Source: an uncultured Clostridia bacterium
Lineage (GTDB): Bacteria > Bacillota > Clostridia > Christensenellales > CAG-138
DNA length: 64,000 nt
Assembly (NCBI GenBank): GCA_946625575.1
Contig: CAMOTD010000005.1
Coordinates: forward strand, 34,000 to 97,999
Direction: 5' to 3'
Below, one piece after another: positions 1 to 26,691 of this stretch. Each line of letters starts with the position of its first letter. Positions within the stretch are counted from its first letter, which is position 1. The notes beneath the pieces are model-generated. The model did no database searches. It saw nothing but the letters and a program-made list of their open reading frames with translations, and had not been told where the DNA came from. Position numbers and translations under genes: made by a program.

Positions 1-1395
1 CTGAATAAGTACAGCGGAGACGTTACAGATAATATTTCGACTGCCAAACGAAACGCCGGCATGAAAATATCGGCGCTCCGTTCCCAGGCTAGCAGGTACA
101 GTACGTATTCCGATAACTTGATCGGTCTAAGGGATGAATGCAAAAGCGTTGATAAAGCAGTCAAGAGCAAAGTTTCATCACTTACGGCGTCGTTTAAAAA
201 TGCCTACGGTATTCGCGACAGCAAGATCGAGAACGCTATCAACTATTTCTTTACTTCAATAGGCAATTCCACTGCGGTTGGCAGATGGATCAGTGGAGCA
301 AAGGATACTTTTAACAAGTATTCCAATTACATTAAGGACAGGATCAGGGAATGGTATAACTACGAAGGAGGGAAAGACCTGATAAAGGGAGTGCTTGTAG
401 GTTTTCTTGAGATCGCTATAGGTATTCTGTCTATCGTTGCCGCAGTTATAAGCGGCGCAGCGCTTATTGTGATAATTGCAGGAGTAATAGCCGGCGTTAT
501 CGCAGTCGCCAATGGTATTGTAAATATGTATAACGAGGGGAGAGCATATAATGCAACTCAACATGATGATCCTGCGACCGGCAAACGACTGAGCGCGGAG
601 AATACGATGCAGGATTTCCTGCGTGACGGAGATATTACGGACGAAAATGGCAGTGGGTTATTCGGCGTTAATGACCATGTCAAACTATCTCGCGGGATAG
701 CGAATACAATTGACGTTGTCAATTTTTGCTGTACTGTAATAACGGTAGTTAGCAGTGCCGGAAAGCTGCTTAAAAATGGATACAAATGGGCGACCGGAAG
801 CTCTGCTGCTCTTAAAGATATAACCATGAAAGACATTTTCTCTAAGGAATTCTTTAAGGGTATAGGATCCAAGTTCAGTAGTGGATTTAAGGATATTAAA
901 CTTGCGCTCAAGTTTAAAGATTGGTCGATAGTAAAAGACTTTGGGATTAGGCTTTTCAGTGATTTTAAATTCAACCTTAACAACAGATTCGCTAACTTTT
1001 CAGAATTTAAAAAGGGGGTTGGCACTGTAAAAAACATTTTAAGCGTTTCGAAGGATTTAATTAACGGCGGCTTTAACTTAAAGAATATAGCAAAAACGGG
1101 CTTTGAAAAGGTTGTAATACCTTGTGTGACTGTTTTTACGGTAACAAAGGATACGCCCGGTATAATTACCGGCAAAGACGGACAGTTATCATTTGATTTC
1201 TTTGATCGTGTTACCATTGATGATTTCTACGGGATCGCAGACAAGATCGGATCAAAAATAATAGGTTCGCCGGTATTTCAAAGCGAAAGCACCTTGAACG
1301 GGGGCGTGATGACCAAACTGGCTTCCTCGAGTAATATCAGCATTTCGATTCCTGAAATAACGATACCCGAGATACATGTTGAGTACGCGGTTTAG
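1..1395 (+). CDS. T7SS-associated polymorphic-toxin-like membrane protein, C-terminal part (5' end lies outside the window)
   Basis: Frame 1 is open from nt 1 (LNKYSGDV... precedes the Met at 61). A helical N-part is followed by a ~45-aa small-residue hairpin, GVLVGFLEIAIGILSIVAAVISGAALIVIIAGVIAGVIAVANGIV, with GxxxG/A spacing. Same strand and tight spacing with two WXG100 genes. Confidence 0.55.
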   Translation: MNKYSGDVTDNISTAKRNAGMKISALRSQASRYSTYSDNLIGLRDECKSVDKAVKSKVSSLTASFKNAYGIRDSKIENAINYFFTSIGNSTAVGRWISGAKDTFNKYSNYIKDRIREWYNYEGGKDLIKGVLVGFLEIAIGILSIVAAVISGAALIVIIAGVIAGVIAVANGIVNMYNEGRAYNATQHDDPATGKRLSAENTMQDFLRDGDITDENGSGLFGVNDHVKLSRGIANTIDVVNFCCTVITVVSSAGKLLKNGYKWATGSSAALKDITMKDIFSKEFFKGIGSKFSSGFKDIKLALKFKDWSIVKDFGIRLFSDFKFNLNNRFANFSEFKKGVGTVKNILSVSKDLINGGFNLKNIAKTGFEKVVIPCVTVFTVTKDTPGIITGKDGQLSFDFFDRVTIDDFYGIADKIGSKIIGSPVFQSESTLNGGVMTKLASSSNISISIPEITIPEIHVEYAV

Positions 1396-1405
1396 TTACA
1401 TAAGT

Positions 1406-1978
1406 ATGGAGCCGAACTATGTATTAAAAACGAATGAAGCGGTATTGATGCCACAAAAAGACAATAGCAAAATTCATAGAATAAAAGTAGCTGTATGGGT
1501 CATTGTCGCAGTAATTGTTATCGCCTCATTCGTGCTGGGAATAAGCGTTTTTTCTGAAATCAGCTGGACGGCACGCTGCTTGCTCATTGCTTTGGCAATT
1601 GGCACCTGCTTTATCGGCCCCAAAAGGGTTAACGTTCCATCGCCGATAGAACTGCAGTTTTTCGATGATTATCTGATACTATATCGTCCAAAACGCTACT
1701 ACAATGCCAGAGTAACAAGACGAGAGATAAACAGGATGTACTATTCAGAGATCTCAAAATGCTTGTTCAAGTCAGAGTCTCAAAGGCTGCATATTTACGG
1801 AACCGTTCATGCAAAATGGTTTAACTATAAAAAGGACGGGTCAATATGTGAAACCCCAACATATGATCGCGACGTAAAAGACACTTTGCTTTATATTAGC
1901 ACTCGATGTTCAGATGCAGATTTTGTTTCTGAGATCGAAAAACACAGTCCATTAACAGTATTAACTGAAAAAAACTAG
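1406..1978 (+). CDS. small 2-TM membrane protein, candidate immunity protein for the upstream ORF
   Basis: ORF-track 1376..1978; the Met at 1406 lies just past the upstream stop. Two hydrophobic helices (VAVWVIVAVIVIASFVLGISVF, CLLIALAIGTCFIG). Position directly after the toxin candidate. Confidence 0.45.
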   Translation: MEPNYVLKTNEAVLMPQKDNSKIHRIKVAVWVIVAVIVIASFVLGISVFSEISWTARCLLIALAIGTCFIGPKRVNVPSPIELQFFDDYLILYRPKRYYNARVTRREINRMYYSEISKCLFKSESQRLHIYGTVHAKWFNYKKDGSICETPTYDRDVKDTLLYISTRCSDADFVSEIEKHSPLTVLTEKN

Positions 1979-1989
1979 GAGGAAGAAAA

Positions 1990-3315
1990 ATGGAAATGAG
2001 CGAAACAAGGATCAATGCGCTTGATCTGAACCAGCAGGCAGCCATGCTGATTAAAACCGGTAATATTGAAGCTGCCAGAAAAAAACTCGATAGTGCTATT
2101 GAACTTGATCCCATGTTAAAGGATAGTTACAAAAACTATGGTGACCTTAATATGGCGATCAATGATTACCAGGAGGCAAAAAACAACTATAAAAAGGCTT
2201 TTCTAATTGAAAAAGATGGATTGCTGTATTTTCTGTATGGAAATGCTTGTTTCATGAAGGATGAGGTTCATGAGGGACTTGAGTATTATAATTTGGCAAT
2301 TGCCAATGGGTATGATGGCGAGGAAATGATGTTCTTCATGGGCATGGCATACGAGCACTTGAATGATGAACATATGGCACTGAGGTATTATCAGAAAGCA
2401 TGCCTAAAGAACCCCTCCAGGCCGGATTATATTGTTAAGAAGATATCGACTGAACTTCGTCTGGACATGATAGATTCCGCAGAACAGGACACAGATGAAC
2501 TGTTGAAGACGGCTCCGGAATTATACGATGGATACCATATAAAAACGCAGATCCTTATTCATAAAGGAGAGTATGATAAAGCAGCTTCCTTTGCAAAGGA
2601 GGCTTCCGATAGGTTTGCGGAGGACGCGGATCTACGGTACGATTATATTAAAGCTCTTGCTATGAAAAAGGACTTTAATACAGCGCTCACTCTAATTGAT
2701 CAAGCTGCACAGATGAAGTATTATGAGGATTCGAAGCTTCAATTCCTTATGTTAAAGGCAGAAATTCTGGCTGAGGATAATAAGTATGATGAAGCCATGG
2801 ATGTATGCAATAAGTGCATCGAATTGGAAACTGACGGTGAGATCAATAGCGAAGCCCGTTTTATGGCAATGAATTTGCACCTTGCAAAACCTGATTATGA
2901 GGAGTCTCTAAAGCAAGCGATTACATTGGTGAAGAATAATAAAGAGGATCTGTATTATTATGCCGCGTTGTATTATAAGGCATTCTGTTTAAAACAGCTT
3001 GAAAAAACTGAAGAAGCTGGTAAGGCATATAAGGAAGCTAACTCTATATATAGATTGCATACTTTAAGTAATCCCGCCGCTATCGATGTTTATCTCTACA
3101 GGGCAATGTGCCTGAAGGACCTTGAGGAATACGACAAATCTCTGGAGATACTCGACTTCATCCTTAATCTCGGCGTTGATATCGCCGAAGTTCATACTTT
3201 GAAGGCTGACGTATACGATTTGACCGGAAAGCATGGCGCAGCCGCACAGGAAAGGGAAAAAGCATATGCGCTTAAGCCCGAACTCAGGCCTGACGAGCAG
3301 AAAGCAGGTGAGTAA
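1990..3315 (+). CDS. tetratricopeptide (TPR) repeat protein
   Basis: GGAGG RBS. Repeated ~34-aa A/Y/L-patterned helices (e.g. YKNYGDLNMAINDYQEAKNNYKKAFLIE, GMAYEHLNDEHMALRYYQKACLKNP). Confidence 0.8.
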   Translation: MEMSETRINALDLNQQAAMLIKTGNIEAARKKLDSAIELDPMLKDSYKNYGDLNMAINDYQEAKNNYKKAFLIEKDGLLYFLYGNACFMKDEVHEGLEYYNLAIANGYDGEEMMFFMGMAYEHLNDEHMALRYYQKACLKNPSRPDYIVKKISTELRLDMIDSAEQDTDELLKTAPELYDGYHIKTQILIHKGEYDKAASFAKEASDRFAEDADLRYDYIKALAMKKDFNTALTLIDQAAQMKYYEDSKLQFLMLKAEILAEDNKYDEAMDVCNKCIELETDGEINSEARFMAMNLHLAKPDYEESLKQAITLVKNNKEDLYYYAALYYKAFCLKQLEKTEEAGKAYKEANSIYRLHTLSNPAAIDVYLYRAMCLKDLEEYDKSLEILDFILNLGVDIAEVHTLKADVYDLTGKHGAAAQEREKAYALKPELRPDEQKAGE

Positions 3316-3630
3316 ATGTCTCTCGCAACACAGGGAAACACAGATTTAGCGTTTAATACGGTCGATTTCAGGCAGCAGGGAGCTAAGTACGGCAATATTG
3401 CCGTATCGCTCAGAGATTTGGCAAAGCAGCTGGATGATTGCCTTACCGAATTAAAAAACAGCGGGTGGACAACTCCTGCCGGTACTGCATTCCAGAAGAT
3501 GGCTGAAACGAACTGGAAGGACAATATAAACAAGTATGCGGATTTGCTGGATACGTTAAAAGCTATTTTAGACGACGCGGCAACCAAATACGATGGTCTT
3601 AACACCAGTATTGAAGAAACAAAACTGTGA
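3316..3630 (+). CDS. WXG100-like small helical protein (EsxB or chaperone-like)
   Basis: 104 aa. ATG directly follows the TPR stop. Helix-turn-helix hairpin size with a central SGWTTPAG turn. Adjacent to an EsxA-like gene. Confidence 0.6.
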   Translation: MSLATQGNTDLAFNTVDFRQQGAKYGNIAVSLRDLAKQLDDCLTELKNSGWTTPAGTAFQKMAETNWKDNINKYADLLDTLKAILDDAATKYDGLNTSIEETKL

Positions 3631-3693
3631 ACAGGGCATTACAGCAATAGCTGATGCTATATAAAAAACAAAAAAAGAAAAGGAGAAAAAAAC

Positions 3694-3990
3694 ATGGCAA
3701 GCATTCGTGTAACCCCCGAAACTCTGAACGCTCAGGGAACTGATCTGATCGGTTATTCCAGCGATCTCGCAGACATCTTGAGCAGCATCGATTCCAAGAT
3801 CAATGAGATCATTGATGGTTGGGATGGCCTCGCTCAGGACGCATATTATGAGATGTATACCAACATGAAGCAGAGCTTGGATAAGTTCCCCGAGTTGGTA
3901 GACGCCCTTGGTCAGGCTACCGTTTCCTCTGCTGAGGCCTTCAGCAGCGTTGATGAGCAGCTCCAGAGCAGCTTCAAGTCGGCTCAGTAA
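3694..3990 (+). CDS. esxA: WXG100 family type VII secretion target (EsxA-like)
   Basis: 98 aa with a central W-D-G (WxG) motif in IIDGWDGLAQDAY and a C-terminal ...EQLQSSFKSAQ tail, as in firmicute EsxA. Strong AAGGAG RBS. Confidence 0.85.
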   Translation: MASIRVTPETLNAQGTDLIGYSSDLADILSSIDSKINEIIDGWDGLAQDAYYEMYTNMKQSLDKFPELVDALGQATVSSAEAFSSVDEQLQSSFKSAQ

Positions 3991-3998
3991 CCGATAAG

Positions 3999-4027
3999 AA
4001 AAAGGGTCCCAAGGGGCCCTTTTTTTG
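3999..4027 (+). terminator. intrinsic terminator after esxA
   Basis: AAAAAGGGTCC-CAAG-GGGCCCTTTTTTT: a GC stem flanked by an A-run and a T-run. Confidence 0.7.
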
Positions 4028-13039: not shown

Positions 13040-15967
13040 TTAAAGCTCCGGTAAAATACCGAGCGCAAAGCGCAATATCAACAGCGCGTCATTGCCGCTG
13101 ATAACGCCGTTGCCGTCGACGTCTCCGGCGAGCAGCGCCTCACCCTCGAGCGTGATAAGGCCGAGCGCGTGCCGCAGGGCGAGCAGCGCGTCGCTGCCGG
13201 TGACGACGCCGTTGAGATCGCAGTCGCCCTTGAGGAACGTTGCCCTGTCAACTTCAATTATATCGGCATTGCCGGCGTAATCGCCGACCTTTACCCAGAC
13301 CTTGTCGCGGCTGCCTACTGAAACGCTCATGCTCGTGACCGCTCCGCGGGAGTCTTCCTCGACCGCCGTCTCGGTAATCGCTGCGGTGCAGGCGGCATTG
13401 GAATACACGCCAATGAACGCGGTGTAATGGTTATCGCGGACGGAAAGCGAGAGCGTACTGCCGTCGAAAACGGAAGAGACAAGCTCGGGAGCGGTCCTGT
13501 CGACGGTGATGGGGACCTCCCACACGGCGTTCTCGTTTTCATACGGATCGAAGGGATCGAAGCTCTGCATATAACCCGTCATGCGGAGTACGCAGTGGGT
13601 GCCGTCGGGAAGGTCGTTCCCGCCCCAATGCTCGATCGCACTCCACTCTTCCGCCCCGACGGGCTGATAGAAGGAGACGAAGGTGTTCTGCACGGCCTTC
13701 GGGATGAAACGGATATCCTGCACGAAGTACTGTTCGCCGGTCTCCGCGTCGACCACCTCGTAGCGGAAGGTCTCCGCGTTGCGGAGCATATAGGTGTGCA
13801 CGAAGCCTATGCTGTCCATATTGCCGTCGCCGTTGGGGCTGAGGGAGGAACGGTCAAGCAGGAAGTTCGTTGTGGAGGCGAAGGGGTTCATGCCGAAAAG
13901 CACGTTGCTTTCGCCCATATAGGCGACTGCGCTGTTTGTGCCCCATTCGTTGGGGTAAGCATGAGTTATGCCCAGGTATTGATCGTAGTAGTTCTTGCGG
14001 TCAAACAGCGCGCCGTACTCCCAATCGCCGTAAAAGCCGAGAAAGGGCACGCTGAGATCGGTCTCGCCGTGAAGCCTCACGAAGCCGTCTATATACATGC
14101 CGAGAGGGCAGGTGGAATCTATCGTGTCCTTATAACCCGCGATATCGACAGTGACGTTTACGGTGCTTCTTCCGCCGGCGGGCACTGTCACGGAGGCGGG
14201 CGCTGTTACACTGCAGAAGGAGGTTATGTCCTCCGAGGCGTGATCCATTATGTCGACGAGGTTATAGCCTATAAGCCACATATTCACGCGCTCGGTCAGC
14301 ACCCTTGTATCGACAGTATACGTGAGCGTATGATCGCCGAAATTGACTACGTCGAAGCTGAATGAGAAGACGCCGCTCTTTGCATCGTCGTCGCCGAGCT
14401 CCAGCTTGGGGCGAAGCTCGCCGGGCACGTCGATATAGGCCTCGGTCGAGACCGCGGCGGTGAGATCCGCCTGGCCTGCGCCCTGTTGTCTGGGGCTGCA
14501 TAGCACGCCGTTCAATGCCGAGGGGCGCGCCGTGCACATGAGCAGGGTATTGACCATTTCCATGGTCTCCTGAGCGGTAAGACCGGGGAAATTCGCCTTT
14601 ACGTACTGCTTGACGAGCGCCATGCCGCCGGCAATATGCGGAGTCGCCATGCTGGTGCCGCTCTTTACGTCGTAATAACCGCCGGAATAATCGGGATCGA
14701 CCGCGGCGCTGATGCTGTCGCCCGGGGCCATTATCTCAGGCTTGATGCGAAGATCGGATGTCGTTCCCCAGCTCGAATAGCTTGCCGGGACGCAGTCTGC
14801 CTCCTTGAGGCTTGCCGCGACGGACATCGCCCCGCGAAGGCATGCGGGAGTGGAGGTGGTGCCGTTGTCGTAGTTGAAGGTGGGCGTGGTGCCGTTGAAT
14901 ATGTTGCCTCCGCCCGCAGTGCCGGCGTTGCCCGAGGCAGCGGCGACGTTCACTCCGTTTGCGGCAAGCAGCGCGAATACGTCTTCAAGATCCTCGTCGT
15001 CGGTGAAGCCGCAGTCAGCCCCGAAGCTCATATTGACGGAATCGACCTGAAGATAAGCGCAGTCCTCCAGCGCGGCGACTATATCTATCCAGTCCGCGTT
15101 GCCGCCGTTGAAGACCTGCATGGCGATCAGCTGCGCGTTGTATGCGACGCCCTTTGCGCCGGGCGCATTACCCGCGGCAATCGAGCTGACGTGAGTGCCG
15201 TGGTCGTTATAAGCATATGAATGGGAAACGTCGGTGTTGGCGGCGTAATAATTGAACGCGAAGGGTATTTTGCTGCTGCGGAAAAGGTCTTCTCCTGTCA
15301 GCGTGCCGGGATAGCGCTGCTCGGCGCAGAGCTCGTTTTCGGAAAGCACCGCGTCAATATCGGCGGCGTCAAAATGCGGCTGCTCGGGGGCGGAAGCAAA
15401 CGCCGGATGCGAGGCCAGTATTCCGGTATCTATGACGGCAATGGTCATGCCCTGGCCGGAATAGCCCAGCGCCCACATGTCGTCCGCGTTGATGAAGCCC
15501 ACGGAAGAGGCAAGCCGCTCGGCTTCGCCCTCCGCGTCGACCTCCTCCGGCAGGGTAAAGACGGGGCTGACATAGCAGTCGGCAACGCCGGGGAGCGCCT
15601 TTATGGCGTTGACGAGCCTGTATTCGCCTCTTAATGCAAAGCCGTTGAAAAGCTGAGTATAGCGGTACAGCACCTCGGCGCCTCCACGCTTCCCGTGGTC
15701 GCTCATAATGGCGTTGATGACGGAATCCTGTTCTTCAAGCAGACGGCGGCTGAGCTCGGCCGCGCGAATATCCCCGGCGGGATAATACGCAAGCGCCGGA
15801 GCGCCCTCCAGCTTGACAACGATGTTGACCTCCTCGTTAGGATCCGCCGTTAAGGCTTCCTCCGCACGGACTTCCTTCCGGGCTGCGGCAGACAGCGGAG
15901 TCACGAAGGACAGTAGAATTGCTGCCGCAAGAAGCGCAGCGGCAATACCCTTTATGCTCTTTTTCAT
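13040..15967 (-). CDS. secreted S8 (subtilisin-family) serine peptidase with C-terminal type-I dockerin
   Basis: Signal peptide MKKSIKGIAAALLAAAILLSFVTPLSAAA. Catalytic D (VIDTGILASHPAF), H (HGTHVSSIAAG) and S (GTSMATPHIAGG). The C-terminus has duplicated Ca-binding dockerin segments: GDCDLNGVVTGSDALLALR and GDVDGNGVISGNDALLILR. Confidence 0.9.
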   Translation of the reverse strand: MKKSIKGIAAALLAAAILLSFVTPLSAAARKEVRAEEALTADPNEEVNIVVKLEGAPALAYYPAGDIRAAELSRRLLEEQDSVINAIMSDHGKRGGAEVLYRYTQLFNGFALRGEYRLVNAIKALPGVADCYVSPVFTLPEEVDAEGEAERLASSVGFINADDMWALGYSGQGMTIAVIDTGILASHPAFASAPEQPHFDAADIDAVLSENELCAEQRYPGTLTGEDLFRSSKIPFAFNYYAANTDVSHSYAYNDHGTHVSSIAAGNAPGAKGVAYNAQLIAMQVFNGGNADWIDIVAALEDCAYLQVDSVNMSFGADCGFTDDEDLEDVFALLAANGVNVAAASGNAGTAGGGNIFNGTTPTFNYDNGTTSTPACLRGAMSVAASLKEADCVPASYSSWGTTSDLRIKPEIMAPGDSISAAVDPDYSGGYYDVKSGTSMATPHIAGGMALVKQYVKANFPGLTAQETMEMVNTLLMCTARPSALNGVLCSPRQQGAGQADLTAAVSTEAYIDVPGELRPKLELGDDDAKSGVFSFSFDVVNFGDHTLTYTVDTRVLTERVNMWLIGYNLVDIMDHASEDITSFCSVTAPASVTVPAGGRSTVNVTVDIAGYKDTIDSTCPLGMYIDGFVRLHGETDLSVPFLGFYGDWEYGALFDRKNYYDQYLGITHAYPNEWGTNSAVAYMGESNVLFGMNPFASTTNFLLDRSSLSPNGDGNMDSIGFVHTYMLRNAETFRYEVVDAETGEQYFVQDIRFIPKAVQNTFVSFYQPVGAEEWSAIEHWGGNDLPDGTHCVLRMTGYMQSFDPFDPYENENAVWEVPITVDRTAPELVSSVFDGSTLSLSVRDNHYTAFIGVYSNAACTAAITETAVEEDSRGAVTSMSVSVGSRDKVWVKVGDYAGNADIIEVDRATFLKGDCDLNGVVTGSDALLALRHALGLITLEGEALLAGDVDGNGVISGNDALLILRFALGILPEL

Positions 15968-21999: not shown

Positions 22000-22005
22000 A
22001 TTATT

Positions 22006-22394
22006 TTACTCCATATCGTTAAGTTTGATCTCGATCCTGTTGAGGGTGTTGAAGAATCGCTCTGTCGCTATCATCGGCCCGAAGCATAGGCAGCCGAGCA
22101 TATTCCACCAAAACATGTGCCGCCGCGAGGTGTGCGGGCCTTCGACGCCCATTTCGACGGCTTTGGCTTCAGCTCCTCCGCGATCCGCGCCATCCATACG
22201 AGGGTGTAGATGAACAGCGTCGGGATGCCTAAAAGATACGCCTGCCAATATGGACGCACCTTATGGCCTAGGGCTTCCTCAAGCTCGCCCTGCAGACCTC
22301 CGAACGGCATATAGAACAGGAAGAACAGCCCCGCGGTAAAGAAATCTATATAACCGAGCCAGAAGCCCTTTCGTTTTGTGTGAGTGAATCTCAT
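22006..22394 (-). pseudogene. DUF4234-like membrane protein with apparent 1-nt frameshift
   Basis: It starts at MRFTHTKRKGFW (GGAG RBS). The reading frame switches near 22166: ...WMARIAEELK continues sensibly only in the frame of ORF 22006..22248 (AKAVEMGVEGP...FWWNMLG...). A missing G in AAG(G)CC would restore it. Confidence 0.5.
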
Positions 22395-22595
22395 GCGCGC
22401 TCCGAATACACAAATATAACTTTCTACAGCAATTATACCACAGATAACAGCGGGAGGAAACAATGTGTTATGAGATCGTGCGGGACCCATCAACAAAGAG
22501 ATTTGGCGCCCGATGATACGCGCTTCAAGGTGCCGAATTTGGCCGAAAACAAAAGAGCGCAAAAGAGAAAAGTCCTTGATTTACAAGGACTTTTC

Positions 22596-22768
22596 TGGCC
22601 TCCCCGGCAGGCGATTATGCGTTCGAATCCACACTCAAGAGTGTGAAAAAGAACACCCCACCGGGTGGTGGAGTGTTCTTTTTGGCCTCCCCGGCAGCGA
22701 TTTCGCGTTCGAATCCACACTCAAGAGTGTGAAAAAGAACACCCCACGGGGTGGTGGAGTGTTCTTTT
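22596..22768 (-). repeat. two tandem 86-88 bp units, each holding a terminator hairpin, a CACACTCTTGAGTGTG hairpin and a copy of the tRNA-Arg 3' end
   Basis: Units span 22596-22683 and 22684-22768/9. Each begins (plus strand) with TGGCCTCCCCGGC, identical to the last 13 nt of the adjacent tRNA including CCA, then GCGATT...GTTCGAATCC. Confidence 0.85.
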
Positions 22769-22845
22769 TGGCCTCCCCGGCGCGATTCGAACGCGCGACC
22801 TTTCGCTTAGGAGGCGAACGCTCTATCCTGCTGAGCTACGGAGAG
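22769..22845 (-). tRNA. tRNA-Arg (anticodon CCT), CCA encoded
   Basis: Hand-folded cloverleaf. Acceptor CTCTCCG/CGGGGAG, D arm GCTC-AGCAGGATA-GAGC, anticodon arm TTCGC-CTCCTAA-GCGAA, variable AGGTC, T arm GCGCG-TTCGAAT-CGCGC, G-CCA. 77 nt. Confidence 0.9.
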
Positions 22846-22872
22846 AAGGCTCTTTCATAAGGACCGTCTATT

Positions 22873-22901
22873 ATCATATCAAATAGGTCGGGGGTTGTCA
22901 A
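22873..22901 (-). promoter_or_regulatory. putative tRNA promoter
   Basis: Minus strand TTGACA (22896-22901), 17 nt, TATGAT (22873-22878). About 27 nt upstream of the tRNA 5' end. Confidence 0.55.
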
Positions 22902-22968
22902 CAAGAAAAAGCCTGGAGCGGCAAAATATATGCGGGCATATATGCCGGCGCGGCGTGTATGGTCGGGA

Positions 22969-23499
22969 TCAGGGGAGTGTATGATCGTGAAAACGATCCT
23001 CGGTTAGTTCATAATCGACGGACGACTGCAGATTGCCGATCTGATCCCTCCACGAGTTTTCGTTCACGCGGAGCTTTTTGAAGCCGAGGAGCTCGTAAAC
23101 GTGCTGCGCCCTTTCGTTCGTTTTGTTGGTGTCGAGGACTATCTTCCGGTATCCTCTGCCGAACAGCTCCTTAATGAGCAGGCTCAGTATGACTCTGCCG
23201 AGCCCCCTTTCCCGGTATTCCGGTCTGCAGATCTTTATGCCGATCTCCGCGGAGAGGTCCGTACGGATGCGGAAGCTCATCTCGCCGATCGGCAAGCCGC
23301 GGTACTCAATGATAAGCCGGCGGCGCGTTTCATCTGTGTCGGTCGAGATGCTCGCGGCGATCTCGTCTGCGGTTATGCCAAGCCCGTTGGGGAACCCGGC
23401 GTGCGCCATCACGCTGCCGTCGTTCCACCATTCGGCGAGCAGGGCGCAGTCGCCTGCTTCGGCGTTTCGTATGCGGATGTCGTTATAATGTATGTCCAT
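22969..23499 (-). CDS. GNAT family N-acetyltransferase
   Basis: IRIRNAEAGDCALLAEWWNDGSVMAHAGF..., acetyl-CoA site RERGLGRVILSLLIKELF, ...NERAQHVYELLGF. GAGGA RBS 5 nt before the ATG at 23499. Confidence 0.8.
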   Translation of the reverse strand: MDIHYNDIRIRNAEAGDCALLAEWWNDGSVMAHAGFPNGLGITADEIAASISTDTDETRRRLIIEYRGLPIGEMSFRIRTDLSAEIGIKICRPEYRERGLGRVILSLLIKELFGRGYRKIVLDTNKTNERAQHVYELLGFKKLRVNENSWRDQIGNLQSSVDYELTEDRFHDHTLP

Positions 23500-24736
23500 T
23501 TTCATCCTCACTTGCCGCGGCGCGCCGCCTTGAGCGCTCCTCCTCCGAGCGGTCGTAATAGGCGTGAACGAGGCTCCTTAACCCCAGCGCCTTCATGTCC
23601 TCATAGCGGGCGCTGAAGCGCGCCTTTGTGCGTTTGCCCGTCAGCAGGAACCGCACGCAGTCCTGCGAGTAGCGGTCGATGATTCGCAGGCTCTCCGAGG
23701 TGGTGATAACGGGGAAGAACCAATACGTCCAGGTCAGCTCGTCCGCGGCGGGGTTCTCGAACAGCTTGCGGTTGAATACGCGTATGAACGCCTTTGCCGC
23801 CTTTTCGCCGTCAAGATCGTTTCGGTCGCGCCATCGGGCGAGGGCGCGGGCTTTCCTTCGCATCTTCGCCTTGATCTTTTTGACGGAAGCCGGCGCAACG
23901 TCTACCGTGCCGCCGCGGCATATGAAGCCGAGGAACGTGAAACCCTCACCGGGGCTTAGGAACTCCTCCTTCGAGGGATTCACGCTGAGCCCGCATTCGC
24001 TGAGGAAGCGGCGCACGGCGTCGGCGTGGGCGCGGACCTCCGCCTCCGTCGGGGCGAAGAGTATGATATCGTCGGAATACCTTGCGTAAGGCACGCCCGC
24101 CTCGAAAAACAGGAGGTCGAGCCCCGAAAGATACAGGTTCGCGCAGAACGAGGCGAGCGGCGTGCCCGCCATGATGCCCTTCTTCACACGCACGGGACGC
24201 CCGTTTTCGAGCGCATCGGGCTCGGACAGAAGGCGCGAGAGGAATTCGTAAAGCGGCTTATCGTCCGCTGTGACCTCCCGCAGCATCGGAAGGAGCCGCT
24301 CGACGGGTATCGAATTGAAATAGTCGCTCACGTCGACTTTATAGGAATACATTCGGGTAACGCCGGGCGTACGCAGCAGCGAAACGAGCGCGTCCTTCGC
24401 GGTGCGCCCGGGCCGGAACGAGAAGAGCACCGGCGCGAATATCCCGTCGTAACGGCGAAGGAGCAGGTAGGTAAGGAGCTTGAGCACCGTATTTTCACGC
24501 TCGGGATATGTGAAGACGATGCGCTTCTTCTGCGTGCTCATCTTGCTGATGACCGTCTTTTTGGGCAAGGGAAAAGCCCCGCCGCGCTTTATCGCTTCAA
24601 CGACGGGGAGCCAGCATTCGCCGTCTATGTAGTTGCGGAGCTTCCTTTTAAGCTCCTCCGGACAGACGAGCGAGGTCTTGTATTCGTAAAACCTCTCCCA
24701 GGCGCGCCGGTCGCCTAACAGATCGAGCATGCTCAT
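23483..24736 (-). CDS. free-standing reverse transcriptase (RNA-directed DNA polymerase) with thumb/X-like tail
   Basis: RT motifs 1-7 are in order, including GIMAGTPLASFCANLYLSGLD, YARYSDDIILF and FTFLGFI. Start taken at the first Met after the upstream gene (MSMLDLL); no obvious SD. The stop lies 17 nt inside the GNAT ORF. Confidence 0.85.
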   Translation of the reverse strand: MSMLDLLGDRRAWERFYEYKTSLVCPEELKRKLRNYIDGECWLPVVEAIKRGGAFPLPKKTVISKMSTQKKRIVFTYPERENTVLKLLTYLLLRRYDGIFAPVLFSFRPGRTAKDALVSLLRTPGVTRMYSYKVDVSDYFNSIPVERLLPMLREVTADDKPLYEFLSRLLSEPDALENGRPVRVKKGIMAGTPLASFCANLYLSGLDLLFFEAGVPYARYSDDIILFAPTEAEVRAHADAVRRFLSECGLSVNPSKEEFLSPGEGFTFLGFICRGGTVDVAPASVKKIKAKMRRKARALARWRDRNDLDGEKAAKAFIRVFNRKLFENPAADELTWTYWFFPVITTSESLRIIDRYSQDCVRFLLTGKRTKARFSARYEDMKALGLRSLVHAYYDRSEEERSRRRAAASEDENGHTL

Positions 24737-24915
24737 TTCAAAAGGCCGACCCGCGGGGCGGATCGGCAAAACAGCGGGGAAGTCTTTAAATTCAGGAAGT
24801 TCCTGAATGTACCGGGCCTTACACGGGCGGGCTGCCTGCGAAGCCGTATCAAAAGCCCGTGCCTTGTCCACAACAGGCGCGCAGTGCGTTCCCCGACCGC
24901 TTTCGGAGTTTGGGC

Positions 24916-25467
24916 TTACAGACCGAGCGCCTCGGACACGCGGGTGACGACGTACTCGCGCGTGTTCCACCAGCCCTTGTGGTCAAAGTAGAAGCGGACG
25001 TAGGGCATACCTGCCTTCCTGCAGTCGGAACGCAGCTTGTTCGCCTCGCTCTTTTCGGTCATAAGCTCGACCACGAGCTTATCCGCGCCGTCCTTTTTGA
25101 AGGTGTAGGTGAACCTTCTTCCGGGATCGACCGTATTCAAGACGGTCTCGTACCCGGGGAATTCCTCGGTAAAGACCTTCTTGAAATAATCAAGATAGCC
25201 GCCGCCGAAATTGTACTGACATTCCTCTGCGGGGACGTTCCTGTACCAATCGGGACTGGGACCGGCGGGCTGGGGCACGGAGCCGCCGCCGATGACGAAC
25301 CCGGTGTGACCTGGGATGACCGTGGCGGGCTTGGGCTCCTCCGCGGGCTTTGCCTCGGGCGCTTCCCCGGGCTTTGCCGCGGCGGCATTCTCCTCCTTAA
25401 CGGCGTCGACCACCTTGTCGACGACTTCCTTCTTGAATTTATCCACAAGACCGTTCAGAAAACTCAT
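24916..25467 (-). CDS. hypothetical protein (coiled N-terminus, Pro/Ala/Glu-rich linker, ~110-aa C-terminal domain)
   Basis: GGAGG RBS. Linker AAAAKPGEAPEAKPAEEPKPATV. C-domain ...FTYTFKKDGADKLVVELMTEKSE...PYVRFYFDHKGWWNTREYV. No family recognised. Confidence 0.6.
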   Translation of the reverse strand: MSFLNGLVDKFKKEVVDKVVDAVKEENAAAAKPGEAPEAKPAEEPKPATVIPGHTGFVIGGGSVPQPAGPSPDWYRNVPAEECQYNFGGGYLDYFKKVFTEEFPGYETVLNTVDPGRRFTYTFKKDGADKLVVELMTEKSEANKLRSDCRKAGMPYVRFYFDHKGWWNTREYVVTRVSEALGL

Positions 25468-25534
25468 ATTAAGCGCCTCCGTGGTGAGATTTTATATTAT
25501 TATATCAGCAAAAAGCGGCATTTGCAAGGACCAT

Positions 25535-26437
25535 TTACGCGCCGTTCCGGGCGGTCTTCTGCACGCCGTATATGCCTGCAAGGATAAGGATGCAGCAAAT
25601 GAGACCGATCCAGCTGAACGGCTCGTGCATGAAAACCACTCCTGCGAAGACGGAAACGGCGGTCGTGAGATTTGCGAACACCGTCTCCCTGGCGACGGAC
25701 ATATAGGTTATTGCGAAGCTTGACGTGAAGTAGCAGATGACCGAGCAGCAGACCGAAAGGTAGATCACCGAAAGGAGATATTTCGTATCGCCGAACGGGA
25801 GGAAATAACTCCTCGGCGAGAAGCCGCATTTAACCGCCGCACAGACGGTGAAAACGACGGCTCCGACTGCGATCATCATATAGGTGCGCTCGAAGGGACT
25901 GAACTCCTTCGATATTTTCCTCGAAAGCAGGGTGTAGCCCGTCGCCCCTATGACTGCGACGATCAGCGCCAGCACGCCGATCAGCTCCACCGTGCCGGAG
26001 CTTTTGCCCATAAGCCCTATGCCGATCACGCCTCCGACGGATATCACGCTGAAAATGAGCTGCCCCGCGGTGGGCTTTTCCTTCAGTATGAGCGCCGCGG
26101 CGAGGGTGCAGAAAACGGGGATCATGGCGATCATTACGCCGGAGAACACCGTTCCGGAATGGATTATGCCGTACTGCTCGCCGAAAAAGTAAACGACCGG
26201 CTCCAGCGCGCCGAGTATGACAAGGACCCAAGCCCGCTTGCCCTTGAGCTCAAGCTTTGCGATACGCAGCAGTACGAGCAGGCTCATCACCGCGAACGCC
26301 AGGAGGAACCTGTGCGAAAGCAGCAGGAACACGTTCGCCTTTGAAAGCGCATAGTCCGAGACCATAAAGCTGAATCCCCAGAAGATATGGCAGATCAGCG
26401 CGGCGATTATTACTTTTACGGCAAGCTTTTTATCCAT
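25535..26437 (-). CDS. EamA/DMT family transporter
   Basis: Ten hydrophobic helices in two EamA-like halves. 300 aa. Confidence 0.8.
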   Translation of the reverse strand: MDKKLAVKVIIAALICHIFWGFSFMVSDYALSKANVFLLLSHRFLLAFAVMSLLVLLRIAKLELKGKRAWVLVILGALEPVVYFFGEQYGIIHSGTVFSGVMIAMIPVFCTLAAALILKEKPTAGQLIFSVISVGGVIGIGLMGKSSGTVELIGVLALIVAVIGATGYTLLSRKISKEFSPFERTYMMIAVGAVVFTVCAAVKCGFSPRSYFLPFGDTKYLLSVIYLSVCCSVICYFTSSFAITYMSVARETVFANLTTAVSVFAGVVFMHEPFSWIGLICCILILAGIYGVQKTARNGA

Positions 26438-26691
26438 GCCAACAGTATAATTCGGGAGGATCGTAAATGCAAGGGTTCATTATCGCCAAACGGACCTCCG
26501 GCGAGTGAAAAAAGGCGGCCGCGCTTCGACCGCTTTGAAGGAGGAAAAGCCCCTCTGCTTCCAATACGGTCGAAACCGTCCCCCGGGGACGGGGAAATCA
26601 TTCACCGCATAATAAAAAAGACGGTCCTAAAAGGGTACATATCATTAAGTGAATGCGCCCAACCGTCTTTCTCGTTTTTTGCAATATGTTT

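What the first reader, a model, noticed from the sequence alone, without database searches (positions are those of the whole stretch)
22969..25467. Free-standing reverse transcriptase overlapping a GNAT acetyltransferase: candidate RT-based defence or repair module
**Seen.**
- A ~417-aa RT has motifs 1-7 in order: KKRIVFTYP, FSFRPGRTAKDA, YKVDVSDYFNSI, GIMAGTPLASFCANLYLSGLD, YARYSDDIILF, GLSVNPSKEEF, FTFLGFI. It also has a thumb/X-like tail (TWTYWFFPV...RIIDRYSQDCVRFLL).
- There is no endonuclease domain, no intron-like RNA on either side and no cas genes.
- None of the retron-typical VTG or NAxxH signatures is present.
- Its stop codon lies 17 nt inside a 176-aa GNAT gene that has its own SD.
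- A 183-aa unknown protein precedes on the same strand, and the tRNA-Arg follows.

**Established.** Free-standing bacterial RTs (UG/Abi/DRT families, group-II-intron-like G2L RTs) act in phage defence or DNA repair, typically with a partner effector and/or an ncRNA.

**Inference.** This is an RT-GNAT two-gene module, possibly three genes with the upstream ORF. I cannot name a described system with this pairing. The GNAT looks RimL/AAC-like, so the link may equally be accidental.
Basis: partly seen in the sequence, partly recalled or inferred. Interest (0 to 1): 0.7.

Follow-up and report, generated by a model that had tools for sequence, protein, structure and literature searches.

The report
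UG26 reverse transcriptase with RT-5 RNA
The reverse transcriptase is real, but its conserved partners are the small upstream protein and a structured RNA (Rfam RT-5) lying between them, which makes this one more copy of the known, functionally uncharacterised UG26 system; the acetyltransferase is a recent chance insertion.

Summary
A 417-aa RT (23483-24736, minus strand) has all motifs, and its stop lies 17 nt inside a GNAT gene. A 183-aa ORF lies upstream and tRNA-Arg(CCT) downstream.

The RT-GNAT interpretation does not hold.
- The RT is a full-length match to PADLOC RT_UG26 (E 2.5e-167), a Class 2 UG/Abi RT.
- The upstream ORF is that group's described accessory (RTasCOG2852, E 1.2e-44).
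- In 80 related genomes the accessory sits upstream in 77, the RNA in 78 and a GNAT in none.
- Relatives with 82% and 75% RT identity have RT then tRNA-Arg directly. The GNAT is a ~0.6-kb insertion and the overlap is its scar.

I extended RT-5 with a covarying outer stem and a pseudoknot.

By analogy with DRT2, DRT9 and DRT10, the RT probably copies part of this RNA into DNA, with the nuclease-fold accessory as partner. This is inferred, not shown.

A defence role is unproven. I found no defence-island signal and no phage or plasmid copies, and the locus is syntenic, consistent with vertical inheritance, in this clade.

Verdict: a new member of a known but functionally uncharacterised kind.

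The parts
25499..25527 (-). Promoter-like site (TTGCAA-17-TATAAT, TG-extended) about 30 nt upstream of the accessory gene. It is the probable operon promoter.
   Evidence: Consensus scan: 10 of 12 hexamer matches. This is a consensus match only. It is supported indirectly by metatranscriptome contigs of the R. flavefaciens-like orthologue, which begin at the accessory gene start.
24916..25467 (-). Accessory protein ('ACC', 183 aa). [quoted passage not shown]
   Evidence: - PADLOC RTasCOG2852, E 1.2e-44, full length.
- No Pfam or NCBIfam hit.
- A homologue lies directly upstream on the same strand in 77 of 80 loci.
- AlphaFold2 gives pLDDT >90 for roughly residues 80-183.
- Foldseek best hit is EcoT38I (E 6e-3), with EndoMS also listed.
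- Invariant residues are listed.
24761..24902 (-). RT-5 ncRNA, extended form of about 142 nt. It comprises outer stem P0, a 5' strand that forms a pseudoknot with the P3 loop, helices P1, P2 and P3, hairpin P4, an invariant UUUAA, and a 3' U-run.
   Evidence: - Rfam RF03026 at 24778..24882: 79.6 bits against a gathering score of 45.7, model positions 1-104 of 104.
- My own covariance model R1 scores 123 bits here and hits once, upstream of the RT, in 78 of 80 loci.
- 95.2% of cells are paired, against 31-47% in the slid controls.
- 33 of 44 pairs carry compensatory changes, including 10 of 13 in P0 and 3 of 7 in the pseudoknot.
24745..24767 (-). Extra GC-rich hairpin (10-bp stem, 3-nt loop) followed by C-UUUU, ending 8 nt before the RT ATG. 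It is specific to this clade and may be a terminator or attenuator.
   Evidence: MFE fold of the spacer and the sequence itself. Comparable hairpins occur in L002, L003, L004 and L006 but not in most loci.
23483..24736 (-). UG26 reverse transcriptase (417 aa, catalytic YSDD). The fold is that of a compact group II intron-like RT.
   Evidence: - PADLOC RT_UG26: E 2.5e-167, 554.7 bits, residues 1-398 against profile positions 1-397 of 398. The next best family is UG27 at 8e-26.
- Pfam RVT_1.
- Homologues run 60-99% identical, and YSDD is invariant.
- AlphaFold2 mean pLDDT is 88.9. Foldseek TM-scores are 0.74 to GsI-IIC RT, 0.68 to G2L4, 0.61 to DRT9 and 0.54 to DRT2.
22934..23537 (-). Lineage-specific insertion of about 0.6 kb carrying the GNAT acetyltransferase gene (22969..23499). 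It is NOT part of the conserved module. It supplies the last ~12-17 codons and the stop codon of the RT.
   Evidence: - blastn of the window against L082 and L085: homology ends at about 23534-23538 and resumes at about 22933.
- Those relatives have the RT stop and then tRNA-Arg 88-175 nt downstream, with no gene between.
- No GNAT hit in any of 80 loci.
22769..22845 (-). tRNA-Arg(CCT). It is a syntenic neighbour in this clade only and is not a component of the system.
   Evidence: ARAGORN. The same tRNA lies downstream of the RT in L002, L003, L005, L082 and L085. Most other loci have no tRNA there, or a different one.

Best explanation
**Shown: what it is**
- The locus is a UG26-type Class 2 UG/Abi reverse-transcriptase system with three conserved parts in fixed order on one strand.
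- The parts are a small accessory protein, a ~140-nt structured ncRNA (Rfam RT-5) that fills the spacer, and a 417-aa RT with an intact YSDD active site.
- The GNAT gene is a bystander. It was inserted between the RT and tRNA-Arg in this lineage, and the 17-nt overlap is the scar of that insertion.

**Inferred: how it works**
- The three parts are transcribed from a promoter upstream of the accessory gene.
- The accessory-plus-RNA part of the transcript is more abundant than the RT mRNA.
- The RT binds the RT-5 RNA and uses a short internal segment as template for DNA synthesis, probably iterative and possibly protein-primed. This is what the characterised Class 2 relatives DRT2, DRT9 and DRT10 do.
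- The accessory protein has a restriction-endonuclease-like fold tethered by a disordered linker to a variable N-terminal module. It acts either on the DNA product or as the effector.
- The most likely biological role is phage defence by abortive infection. That role is less certain than the molecular mechanism.
For: **Identity**
- Full-length profile matches to RT_UG26 and RTasCOG2852.
- Mestre et al. 2022 describe UG26 as Class 2, sometimes with a COG2852-like cluster 1531 (PMC9226505).
- RT-5 RNA scores above Rfam's gathering score.

**Conservation of the trio**
- The accessory is upstream in 77 of 80 loci.
- RT-5 is present in 19 of 20 loci by Rfam and in 78 of 80 by my own model. It occurs once per locus, on the same strand.
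- The gaps are tight: a median 19 nt from accessory stop to RNA, and 18.5 nt from RNA to RT start.
- No other gene family is shared by more than 5 of the 80 loci.

**RNA structure**
- 95.2% of cells are paired, against 31-47% in slid controls.
- 33 of 44 pairs carry compensatory changes.

**GNAT as an insertion**
-.

**Expression**
- In four rumen metatranscriptomes, contigs of the R. flavefaciens-like orthologue cover the accessory gene plus the RNA at depth 7-15.5 and stop inside the RNA.
- The RT ORF is covered at depth 2-6.

**Mechanistic analogy**
- DRT2, DRT9 and DRT10 all use an ncRNA, encoded with the RT, as template for repetitive cDNA. The sources are bioRxiv 10.1101/2025.10.16.682844 and the abstracts listed.
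- For UG2 (DRT2) and UG28 (DRT9) the RNA lies 5' of the RT gene (PMC9226505).
- The RT model superposes on DRT9 at TM 0.61 and on the templated GsI-IIC RT at TM 0.74.
Against: - No cDNA product, template segment or phenotype has been observed for UG26, here or in the literature I could search.
- Mestre et al. called the defence prediction for UG26 inconclusive.
- I found few strong PADLOC hits among 137 flanking proteins. The window's neighbours are metabolic genes.
- No orthologue turned up in GenBank phages, PLSDB plasmids or IMG/VR.
- In the window's clade the locus is syntenic. The RT (71-75% identical) is as conserved as the flanking housekeeping enzymes (67-80%). That is atypical for a fast-turning defence gene.
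- The accessory's nuclease assignment is weak. It has no Pfam or PDB sequence hit, its best fold hit has TM 0.31, and no canonical PD-(D/E)xK motif is evident.
- The RNA-seq evidence comes from assembled contigs, not raw stranded reads.
Confidence: 0.6

Rival explanations
1. The same three-part UG26 ribonucleoprotein serves a non-defence, housekeeping-like function in rumen Clostridia. Examples would be DNA repair or gap filling, as for the free-standing G2L4 RT, or synthesis of a specific cellular DNA.
For: - The locus is syntenic in the window's clade, consistent with vertical inheritance. The RT there is as conserved as the neighbouring enzymes.
- The family is tight across at least 574 species representatives: median 61% and minimum 52% pairwise identity among the 81 RTs compared.
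- No defence-island signal appears.
- It is absent from phage, plasmid and viral-contig collections.
- The fold is nearest to GsI-IIC and G2L4 RTs.
Against: - Flanks differ in nearly every locus outside the close clade. That fits a mobile cassette better than a core gene.
- The system is present in only a small fraction of the 185,579 species representatives scanned.
- Every characterised UG/Abi Class 2 system so far is antiviral.
- One locus has lost the accessory (L064) and one has lost both accessory and RNA (L073).
Confidence: 0.25
2. RT-5 is not a template. It is a 5'-UTR operator that the RT binds to control its own translation or transcription read-through, as group II intron maturases bind domain IVa over their own start codon.
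For: - The RNA ends a median of 18.5 nt before the RT start codon, next to the Shine-Dalgarno sequence.
- Its outer stem plus U-run looks terminator-like.
- Transcript contigs drop about 3-fold at its 3' end.
- The RT is structurally closest to a group II intron RT.
Against: - In L014, L020, L042 and L068 the RNA lies 140-572 nt from the RT start, in L014 with an ORF in between. It is still fully conserved, which argues against a purely cis translational operator.
- Near-invariant single-stranded stretches and a pseudoknot conserved across 79 sequences exceed what an operator needs.
- Relatives in Class 2 use such RNAs as templates.
- The two roles are not mutually exclusive.
Confidence: 0.1
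3. One reading: RT and GNAT form a functional two-gene defence or repair module, coupled through their 17-nt overlap.
For: The overlap is real and no terminator is seen between the two genes. The GNAT is therefore probably co-transcribed with the RT in this organism.
Against: - None of 80 related loci has a GNAT homologue within 6 kb.
- Relatives at 82% and 75% RT identity have tRNA-Arg directly after the RT.
- DNA homology breaks exactly around the GNAT.
- The GNAT has no PADLOC match.
- Another locus, L014, carries a different unrelated ORF inserted into the module. Such insertions therefore recur.
Confidence: 0.03
4. The RT is a mobile group II intron maturase, or the remnant of one, or a retron RT.
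For: - NCBIfam group_II_RT_mat gives E 4e-28.
- Some database records name homologues 'group II intron reverse transcriptase domain-containing protein'.
- The best structural match is GsI-IIC RT.
Against: - The TIGR04416 score of 98.5 bits is far below its cut-off of 300, and the retron_St85 score of 42 bits is below 235.
- No Intron_gpII or retron RNA appears in Rfam scans of the window or of 20 loci.
- The only RNA is about 140 nt, lies on one side only, and belongs to the RT-5 family.
- There is no endonuclease domain.
Confidence: 0.02

Closest known systems
UG26 group of Class 2 UG/Abi reverse transcriptases, with accessory 'cluster 1531' (Mestre et al., NAR 2022, PMC9226505)
   Same: The RT matches the UG26 profile over its full length (554.7 bits) and the upstream protein matches the RT-associated COG2852 profile. 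There is no fused domain, as Class 2 requires.
   Different: - The paper had 35 members and found the accessory in 9 of them. It described no ncRNA and left the defence prediction 'inconclusive'.
- Here the accessory is next to the RT in 77 of 80 loci and a specific ncRNA in 78 of 80.
- The family reaches at least 574 species representatives.
RT-5 RNA motif (Rfam RF03026; Weinberg et al., NAR 2017, PMC5737381)
   Same: Full-length match above the gathering score, with the same nested helices. The motif was described only as lying 'nearby to reverse transcriptase genes'.
   Different: - The real element appears to be longer, about 142 nt.
- It has an 11-13-bp covarying outer stem followed by a U-run.
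- It also has a 7-bp pseudoknot between the 5' GCGCCUGCG strand and the P3 loop.
- It is tied here to one RT group, UG26. No paper I could search makes that link.
DRT9 (UG28), DRT2 (UG2) and DRT10 (UG17): characterised Class 2 systems
   Same: - Each is a single RT without extra domains that works with an ncRNA encoded alongside it.
- For UG2 and UG28 the RNA lies 5' of the RT gene.
- The folds are similar, with TM 0.61 to DRT9 and 0.54 to DRT2.
- They copy a segment of their RNA repeatedly into DNA.
   Different: - Sequence similarity is only distant (Drt9 E 2.5e-21, Drt2 7e-16, UG17 1e-24, against 2.5e-167 for UG26).
- The RNA belongs to a different family.
- The partner is a nuclease-fold protein encoded upstream of the RNA, rather than none (DRT2, DRT9) or a SLATT protein (DRT10).
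- The product and the trigger are unknown.
Group II intron RT GsI-IIC and free-standing G2L4 RT
   Same: These are the best structural matches over the whole length (TM 0.74 and 0.68). Size and domain order are similar.
   Different: There is no intron RNA, and the score is below the maturase family cut-off. G2L4 is not known to me to have a dedicated ncRNA or this accessory; that point rests on my own knowledge and was not tested.

Membership tests
UG26 (Class 2 UG/Abi RT) | The RT sequence matches the UG26 profile better than any other RT class | tested here: met
   PADLOC RT_UG26: E 2.5e-167, 554.7 bits, residues 1-398 against profile positions 1-397 of 398. The runner-up is UG27 at 88.9 bits.
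UG26 (Class 2 UG/Abi RT) | No additional known domain fused to the RT (the Class 2 criterion) | tested here: met
   Pfam finds RVT_1 only, and the protein is 417 aa. The AlphaFold2 model is a compact RT with a helical C-terminal region.
UG26 (Class 2 UG/Abi RT) | Co-location with the COG2852-like accessory (cluster 1531) | tested here: met
   PADLOC RTasCOG2852, E 1.2e-44, for the ORF at 24916..25467. A homologue is present in 77 of 80 related loci.
Defence-associated RT (DRT) as a functional class | Experimentally shown protection against phage | not testable with these tools
   No experiment on UG26 turned up in the library. Mestre et al. did not test it.
Defence-associated RT (DRT) as a functional class | Enrichment next to known defence genes, or carriage on mobile elements | tested here: inconclusive
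   - Only a few of 137 flanking proteins hit PADLOC strongly, and some of those hits are generic helicases.
- The window's neighbours are metabolic genes.
- No phage, plasmid or IMG/VR orthologues were found.
- No background rate was computed.
RT-5 RNA (RF03026) | Score at or above Rfam's gathering score over the whole model | tested here: met
   79.6 bits against 45.7, model positions 1-104 of 104.
RT-5 RNA (RF03026) | Helices supported by compensatory changes | tested here: met
   33 of 44 pairs carry changes on both sides. 95.2% of cells are paired, against 31-47% in slid controls. An independent MAFFT alignment gave 92.9%. Caveat: alignment A3 is fitted to the model.
Class 2 ncRNA-templated RT mechanism (DRT2, DRT9, DRT10-like) | RT-dependent cDNA complementary to a segment of the cognate ncRNA | not testable with these tools
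   Only contig-level metatranscriptome data were available. No cDNA data exist.
Group II intron maturase | Intron RNA domains on both sides of the ORF, and a score at or above the TIGR04416 cut-off | tested here: not met
   The score is 98.5 bits against a cut-off of 300. No Intron_gpII match at E<=1 in 22000-26500, nor at gathering score in the whole window or in 20 loci.
Retron | Retron RT profile match and an msr/msd RNA | tested here: not met
   retron_St85_RT scores 42.3 bits against a cut-off of 235. No retron RNA family was found by Rfam.
PD-(D/E)xK / Vsr-like endonuclease (COG2852, DUF559) for the accessory protein | Sequence-profile match to the family | tested here: not met
   - No Pfam or NCBIfam hit at E<=0.1.
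- No PDB sequence hit at E<=10.
- A profile search of 1.84 billion representatives returns only 243 clusters, the best 150 of which match mostly over the full length or the C-terminal domain. None was checked for DUF559/Vsr, so no link to that family was tested or found.
PD-(D/E)xK / Vsr-like endonuclease (COG2852, DUF559) for the accessory protein | Restriction-endonuclease-like fold with catalytic acidic and lysine residues | tested here: inconclusive
   - The alpha-beta-beta-beta-alpha-beta-alpha core has pLDDT >90.
- The best fold hits are EcoT38I (E 6e-3, TM 0.31) and EndoMS.
- E81, E134, D162 and H163 are conserved, but no canonical D...(D/E)xK motif is present.
   0 of 80 loci and 0 of 5 closer contigs. 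The insertion boundaries were mapped.

The most novel reading that the evidence does not exclude
UG26 + RT-5 + accessory may be a vertically maintained ribonucleoprotein of rumen and gut Clostridia. On this reading its RT writes a defined, possibly repetitive, DNA from a short segment of RT-5 held next to a pseudoknot, a telomerase-like layout. It would serve either a cellular function or a new kind of defence whose effector is a nuclease-fold protein tethered by a variable N-terminal module. Either outcome would add a new product type to the Class 2 'DNA-writing' RTs.
Probability: 0.25. Interest if true: 0.8.

Novelty: new member of a known kind. Interest (0 to 1): 0.45.

Why it matters
**Background**
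- Class 2 UG/Abi RTs have recently yielded three unexpected DNA-synthesis mechanisms. These are gene synthesis by DRT2, poly-dA by DRT9 and telomerase-like repeats by DRT10.
- UG26 is one of the groups still without any mechanism or phenotype.

**What this work adds**
- This locus is not itself special. Working through it shows that UG26 is a fixed three-part system.
- Its RNA component already sits in Rfam as the orphan motif RT-5. I found no paper in the searchable library that makes this link.
- The accessory protein is near-universal rather than occasional.
- The family is abundant in rumen Clostridia, including cultured strains such as Ruminococcus flavefaciens MA2007.
- The system is therefore directly testable.

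**Correction for annotation pipelines**
- Gene overlap with the GNAT is not evidence of a functional pair.

Tried and rejected
- **RT-GNAT pairing.** Rejected.
- **tRNA-Arg as a component or primer.** Rejected as a general feature. The same tRNA follows the RT only in the window's clade. Other loci have Asn, Val or Gly tRNAs, or none.
- **Long 495-aa RT ORF from GTG 24970.** Rejected. Homologues start at MSMLDLL and the extension runs through the ncRNA.
- **Metatranscriptome reads on the window itself.** Only low-depth contigs cover the RT, accessory and GNAT. None covers the window's own RNA at 93% identity or better. At 80% only the conserved core of other species' RT-5 was recovered. Not decisive.
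- **Template hunting in RT-5.** I considered the variable, G-poor J2/3 loop (median 8 nt), the invariant UUUAA, the 3' U-run and the duplicated GUAC. None can be chosen from sequence alone.
- **N-terminal amphipathic helix of the accessory as a membrane anchor.** The hydrophobic moment is only modestly above shuffles (0.55 against 0.40), so this remains a low-confidence idea.
- **Taxonomic congruence of the RT tree.** It is partly coherent, but MAG labels are too coarse to separate vertical from horizontal spread.
- **Not done.** I did not run a homologue or context search for the GNAT, judging it unnecessary once the insertion was mapped. I did not run a profile-profile comparison of the accessory with Vsr/DUF559, because no trusted family alignment was at hand.


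Full report
**1. What is in the sequence**

All features lie on the minus strand.
- A 183-aa ORF, called ACC here, is at 24916..25467.
- A 179-nt spacer follows it.
- The reverse transcriptase (RT) ORF is at 23483..24736 (417 aa).
- A GNAT ORF has its ATG at 23499, 17 nt before the end of the RT. It ends at 22969.
- tRNA-Arg(CCT) is at 22769..22845.

Pfam finds only RVT_1 in the RT and GNAT families in the downstream ORF. It finds nothing in ACC. The RT start at MSMLDLL is fixed by 26 homologues that begin at the same position. The 495-aa ORF reaching back to GTG 24970 is an open frame running through the spacer.

**2. What the RT and the upstream ORF are**

Against PADLOC-DB the RT matches RT_UG26 over its full length (E 2.5e-167, 554.7 bits). 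The next family, UG27, scores 88.9 bits. ACC matches 'RTasCOG2852' (E 1.2e-44), and the GNAT matches nothing. Group II maturase, retron and Drt2-5 models in NCBIfam all score far below their cut-offs.

Mestre et al. 2022 (PMC9226505) define UG26 as follows:
- It is a Class 2 UG/Abi group with 35 members.
- Nine of those members sit next to 'cluster 1531', a COG2852/YcjD-like protein.
- The defence prediction was 'inconclusive'.
- No ncRNA was described.

**3.

An Rfam scan of 22000-26500 finds RF03026 'RT-5 RNA' at 24778..24882 on the minus strand. It scores 79.6 bits against a gathering score of 45.7 and covers the whole model. RT-5 and the tRNA are the only Rfam families in the 64-kb window.

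RT-5 is one of 19 'RT' motifs that Weinberg et al. 2017 found near RT genes without assigning a function (PMC5737381). Full-text searches found no paper that mentions RT-5 RNA or RF03026, or that links the RT-n motifs to UG groups.

**4. Conservation across genomes**

The RT family is large and tight.
- More than 2,000 proteins match, and the best 120 are 60-99% identical.
- At least 574 species representatives in the genome collection encode it.
- The best 80 are rumen or gut Clostridia, including the isolates Ruminococcus flavefaciens MA2007 and Ruminococcaceae bacterium YRB3002.

Within these 80 loci:
- An ACC homologue lies directly upstream on the same strand in 77. L058 has no upstream DNA, and L064 and L073 lack ACC.
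- A GNAT homologue is present in none.
- Rfam finds RT-5 in 19 of 20 loci scanned.
- A covariance model I built from these (R1) hits exactly once, on the RT strand and just upstream of the RT, in 78 of 80 loci and in the window. The two misses are L058 and L073.
- Spacing is tight. The median is 19 nt from the ACC stop to the RNA and 18.5 nt from the RNA to the RT start, usually with a Shine-Dalgarno sequence there.
- Apart from RT and ACC, no gene family is shared by more than 5 of the 80 loci.

The conserved unit is therefore ACC, then RT-5, then RT, and nothing else.

**5. The RNA**

An alignment with 18-nt flanks revealed two features beyond the nested Rfam consensus shown by cmscan.
- An outer stem pairs 5' CAGAAAGAGAA with 3' UUCUCUUUCUG and is followed by a U-run. 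In the window the strands are GGGGAA and UUCCCC.
- A 7-bp pseudoknot forms between the 5' GCGCCUGCG strand and the invariant P3 loop UUCGCAGGC.

On 79 sequences 95.2% of cells are paired, against 31-47% when partners are slid. Of the 44 pairs, 33 carry compensatory changes. That includes 10 of 13 in the outer stem and 3 of 7 in the pseudoknot, for example U-A to C-G in six sequences. That alignment is fitted to the model, but an independent MAFFT alignment of 20 sequences gives 92.9% pairing and 23 covarying pairs.

The unpaired invariant stretches are UUUAA between P4 and the outer stem, and GUAC twice. The loop between P2 and P3 is variable, G-poor and a median of 8 nt long.

In the window and a few relatives an extra GC hairpin plus U4 sits between the RNA and the RT ATG.

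**6. The GNAT is an insertion**

- Contigs with RTs 82% (L082) and 75% (L085) identical carry ACC, RT and then tRNA-Arg(CCT) 88-175 nt after the RT stop, with no gene between.
- blastn shows window homology to them running through the RT 3' end to about 23534-23538. It resumes at about 22933 and continues through the tRNA.
- About 0.6 kb is thus extra in the window: the GNAT gene plus some 35 nt on each side.
- The last 12-17 RT codons (AAASEDENGHTL and the stop) lie in the inserted DNA.
- The 17-nt overlap is therefore a scar of the insertion, not evolved coupling.
- L014 has a different ORF inserted between the RNA and the RT, so such hitch-hikers recur.

**7. The proteins**

RT:
- The AlphaFold2 model has mean pLDDT 88.9.
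- The best full-length structural matches are GsI-IIC group II intron RT (TM 0.74), G2L4 (0.68), DRT9 (0.61) and DRT2 (0.54).
- It is a compact, group-II-intron-like templated polymerase with an invariant YSDD.

ACC:
- An N-terminal helix with a conserved M[SG][LIM][LF]xKL[FL]G motif is followed by a disordered linker of about 45 residues.
- The C-terminal alpha-beta-beta-beta-alpha-beta-alpha domain has pLDDT >90.
- Fold matches are weak but point to restriction-endonuclease-like enzymes. They are EcoT38I at E 6e-3 and TM 0.31, and EndoMS.
- There is no Pfam or PDB sequence hit.
- Conserved residues include P79, E81, Q84, E134, R146, Y156, R158, Y160, D162 and H163 (both nearly invariant), GWWNTR 165-170 and R176. 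No canonical PD-(D/E)xK motif is evident.
- A profile search of 1.84 billion representatives returns only 243 clusters. A few have 2-3 tandem domains, or an N-terminal zinc ribbon or bacterial PH-like region in place of the helix.
- The C-terminal domain is the constant functional core. The N-terminus looks like an exchangeable localisation or interaction module. That last point is inference.

**8. Context and expression**

- The window's neighbours are metabolic or envelope genes. They include a flavin reductase, a flavodoxin, a CMD/cupin protein, a PNPOx-family protein, an EamA transporter, an acyltransferase, a glycosyltransferase, a patatin and a dockerin-bearing subtilase.
- Among 137 flanking proteins from 37 loci only a handful hit PADLOC strongly.
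- No orthologue is found in GenBank phages, PLSDB plasmids or IMG/VR.
- In the window's clade the locus is syntenic. Flanking enzymes are 67-80% identical, the RT 71-75% and ACC 55-58%. This indicates vertical inheritance there.
- A promoter-like site lies about 30 nt upstream of ACC.
- In four rumen metatranscriptomes, contigs of an R. flavefaciens-like strain start at the ACC start. They cover ACC plus most of the RNA at depth 7-15.5 and end inside the RNA. The RT ORF is covered at depth 2-6, after a gap.
- This suggests co-transcription of ACC and the RNA, with attenuated read-through into the RT. It is contig-level evidence only.

**9. How it most likely works**

Shown: the identity of the three parts, their fixed order and conservation, the RNA structure, and the intact catalytic motif.

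Inferred:
- The characterised Class 2 relatives DRT2, DRT9 and DRT10 all bind an ncRNA encoded with the RT and copy a segment of it iteratively into DNA.
- For UG2 and UG28 that RNA lies 5' of the RT gene.
- By analogy the UG26 RT most likely uses RT-5 the same way.
- ACC would then process or sense the product, or act as the effector.
- Which segment is the template cannot be read from the sequence.
- Phage defence is the default expectation for UG/Abi RTs. The stable, non-island and non-mobile context keeps a cellular role open (rival, 0.25).
- A purely regulatory role for the RNA is less likely, because the RNA stays conserved when it is displaced 140-572 nt from the RT.

**10. Verdict**

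- The RT-GNAT interpretation is not supported.
- The locus is a new member of a known but functionally uncharacterised kind, UG26.
- The useful by-products are the UG26 to RT-5 assignment, the extended RNA model, and the near-universal accessory.

Noticed in passing
window 22611-22781: An 85-nt tandem direct repeat (22611-22695 and 22697-22781, 96% identical). The second copy overlaps the last ~13 nt of tRNA-Arg, and each copy contains a terminator-like hairpin. It may be a remnant of an integration or excision at the tRNA, or a simple duplication.
   Followed up: partly
window 1-4000: GC content is 0.40-0.46 here, against 0.51-0.62 in the rest of the window. This may be foreign DNA or a differently composed gene cluster. 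The ORFs were listed but not annotated.
   Followed up: no
L013 7198-7345 (Ruminococcus flavefaciens MA2007, just downstream of the RT): A short stretch reaches depth 74-327 in four rumen metatranscriptomes, against 2-15 for the neighbouring genes. Several sequence variants are present. There is no tRNA and no Rfam family above threshold. It may be an abundant unannotated small RNA or leader.
   Followed up: partly
proteins P0241-P0246, P0337, P0343, P0355, P0357, P0359: The accessory family has variant architectures. Some members carry two or three tandem copies of the C-terminal domain. Others have an N-terminal zinc ribbon or a bacterial PH-like region, joined by very long low-complexity linkers (up to 854 aa). 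Their genomic contexts were not examined.
   Followed up: partly
L014 2082-2653: An unrelated ORF of about 180 aa is inserted between the RT-5 RNA and the RT (a 572-nt gap). This parallels the GNAT insertion in the window.
   Followed up: no
L064 and L073: Two reduced versions of the system. L064 (the isolate YRB3002) has RNA plus RT but no accessory, and a 563-aa membrane protein gene ends 8 nt before the RNA. L073 has the RT alone, next to a divergently transcribed 159-aa ORF that was not annotated.
   Followed up: partly
window 13040-15967 (minus strand): A 975-aa subtilase with an Fn3-like domain and a C-terminal type I dockerin. It points to a cellulosome-bearing rumen Clostridia host. 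That fits the bovine gut metagenome runs that hold this sequence.
   Followed up: no
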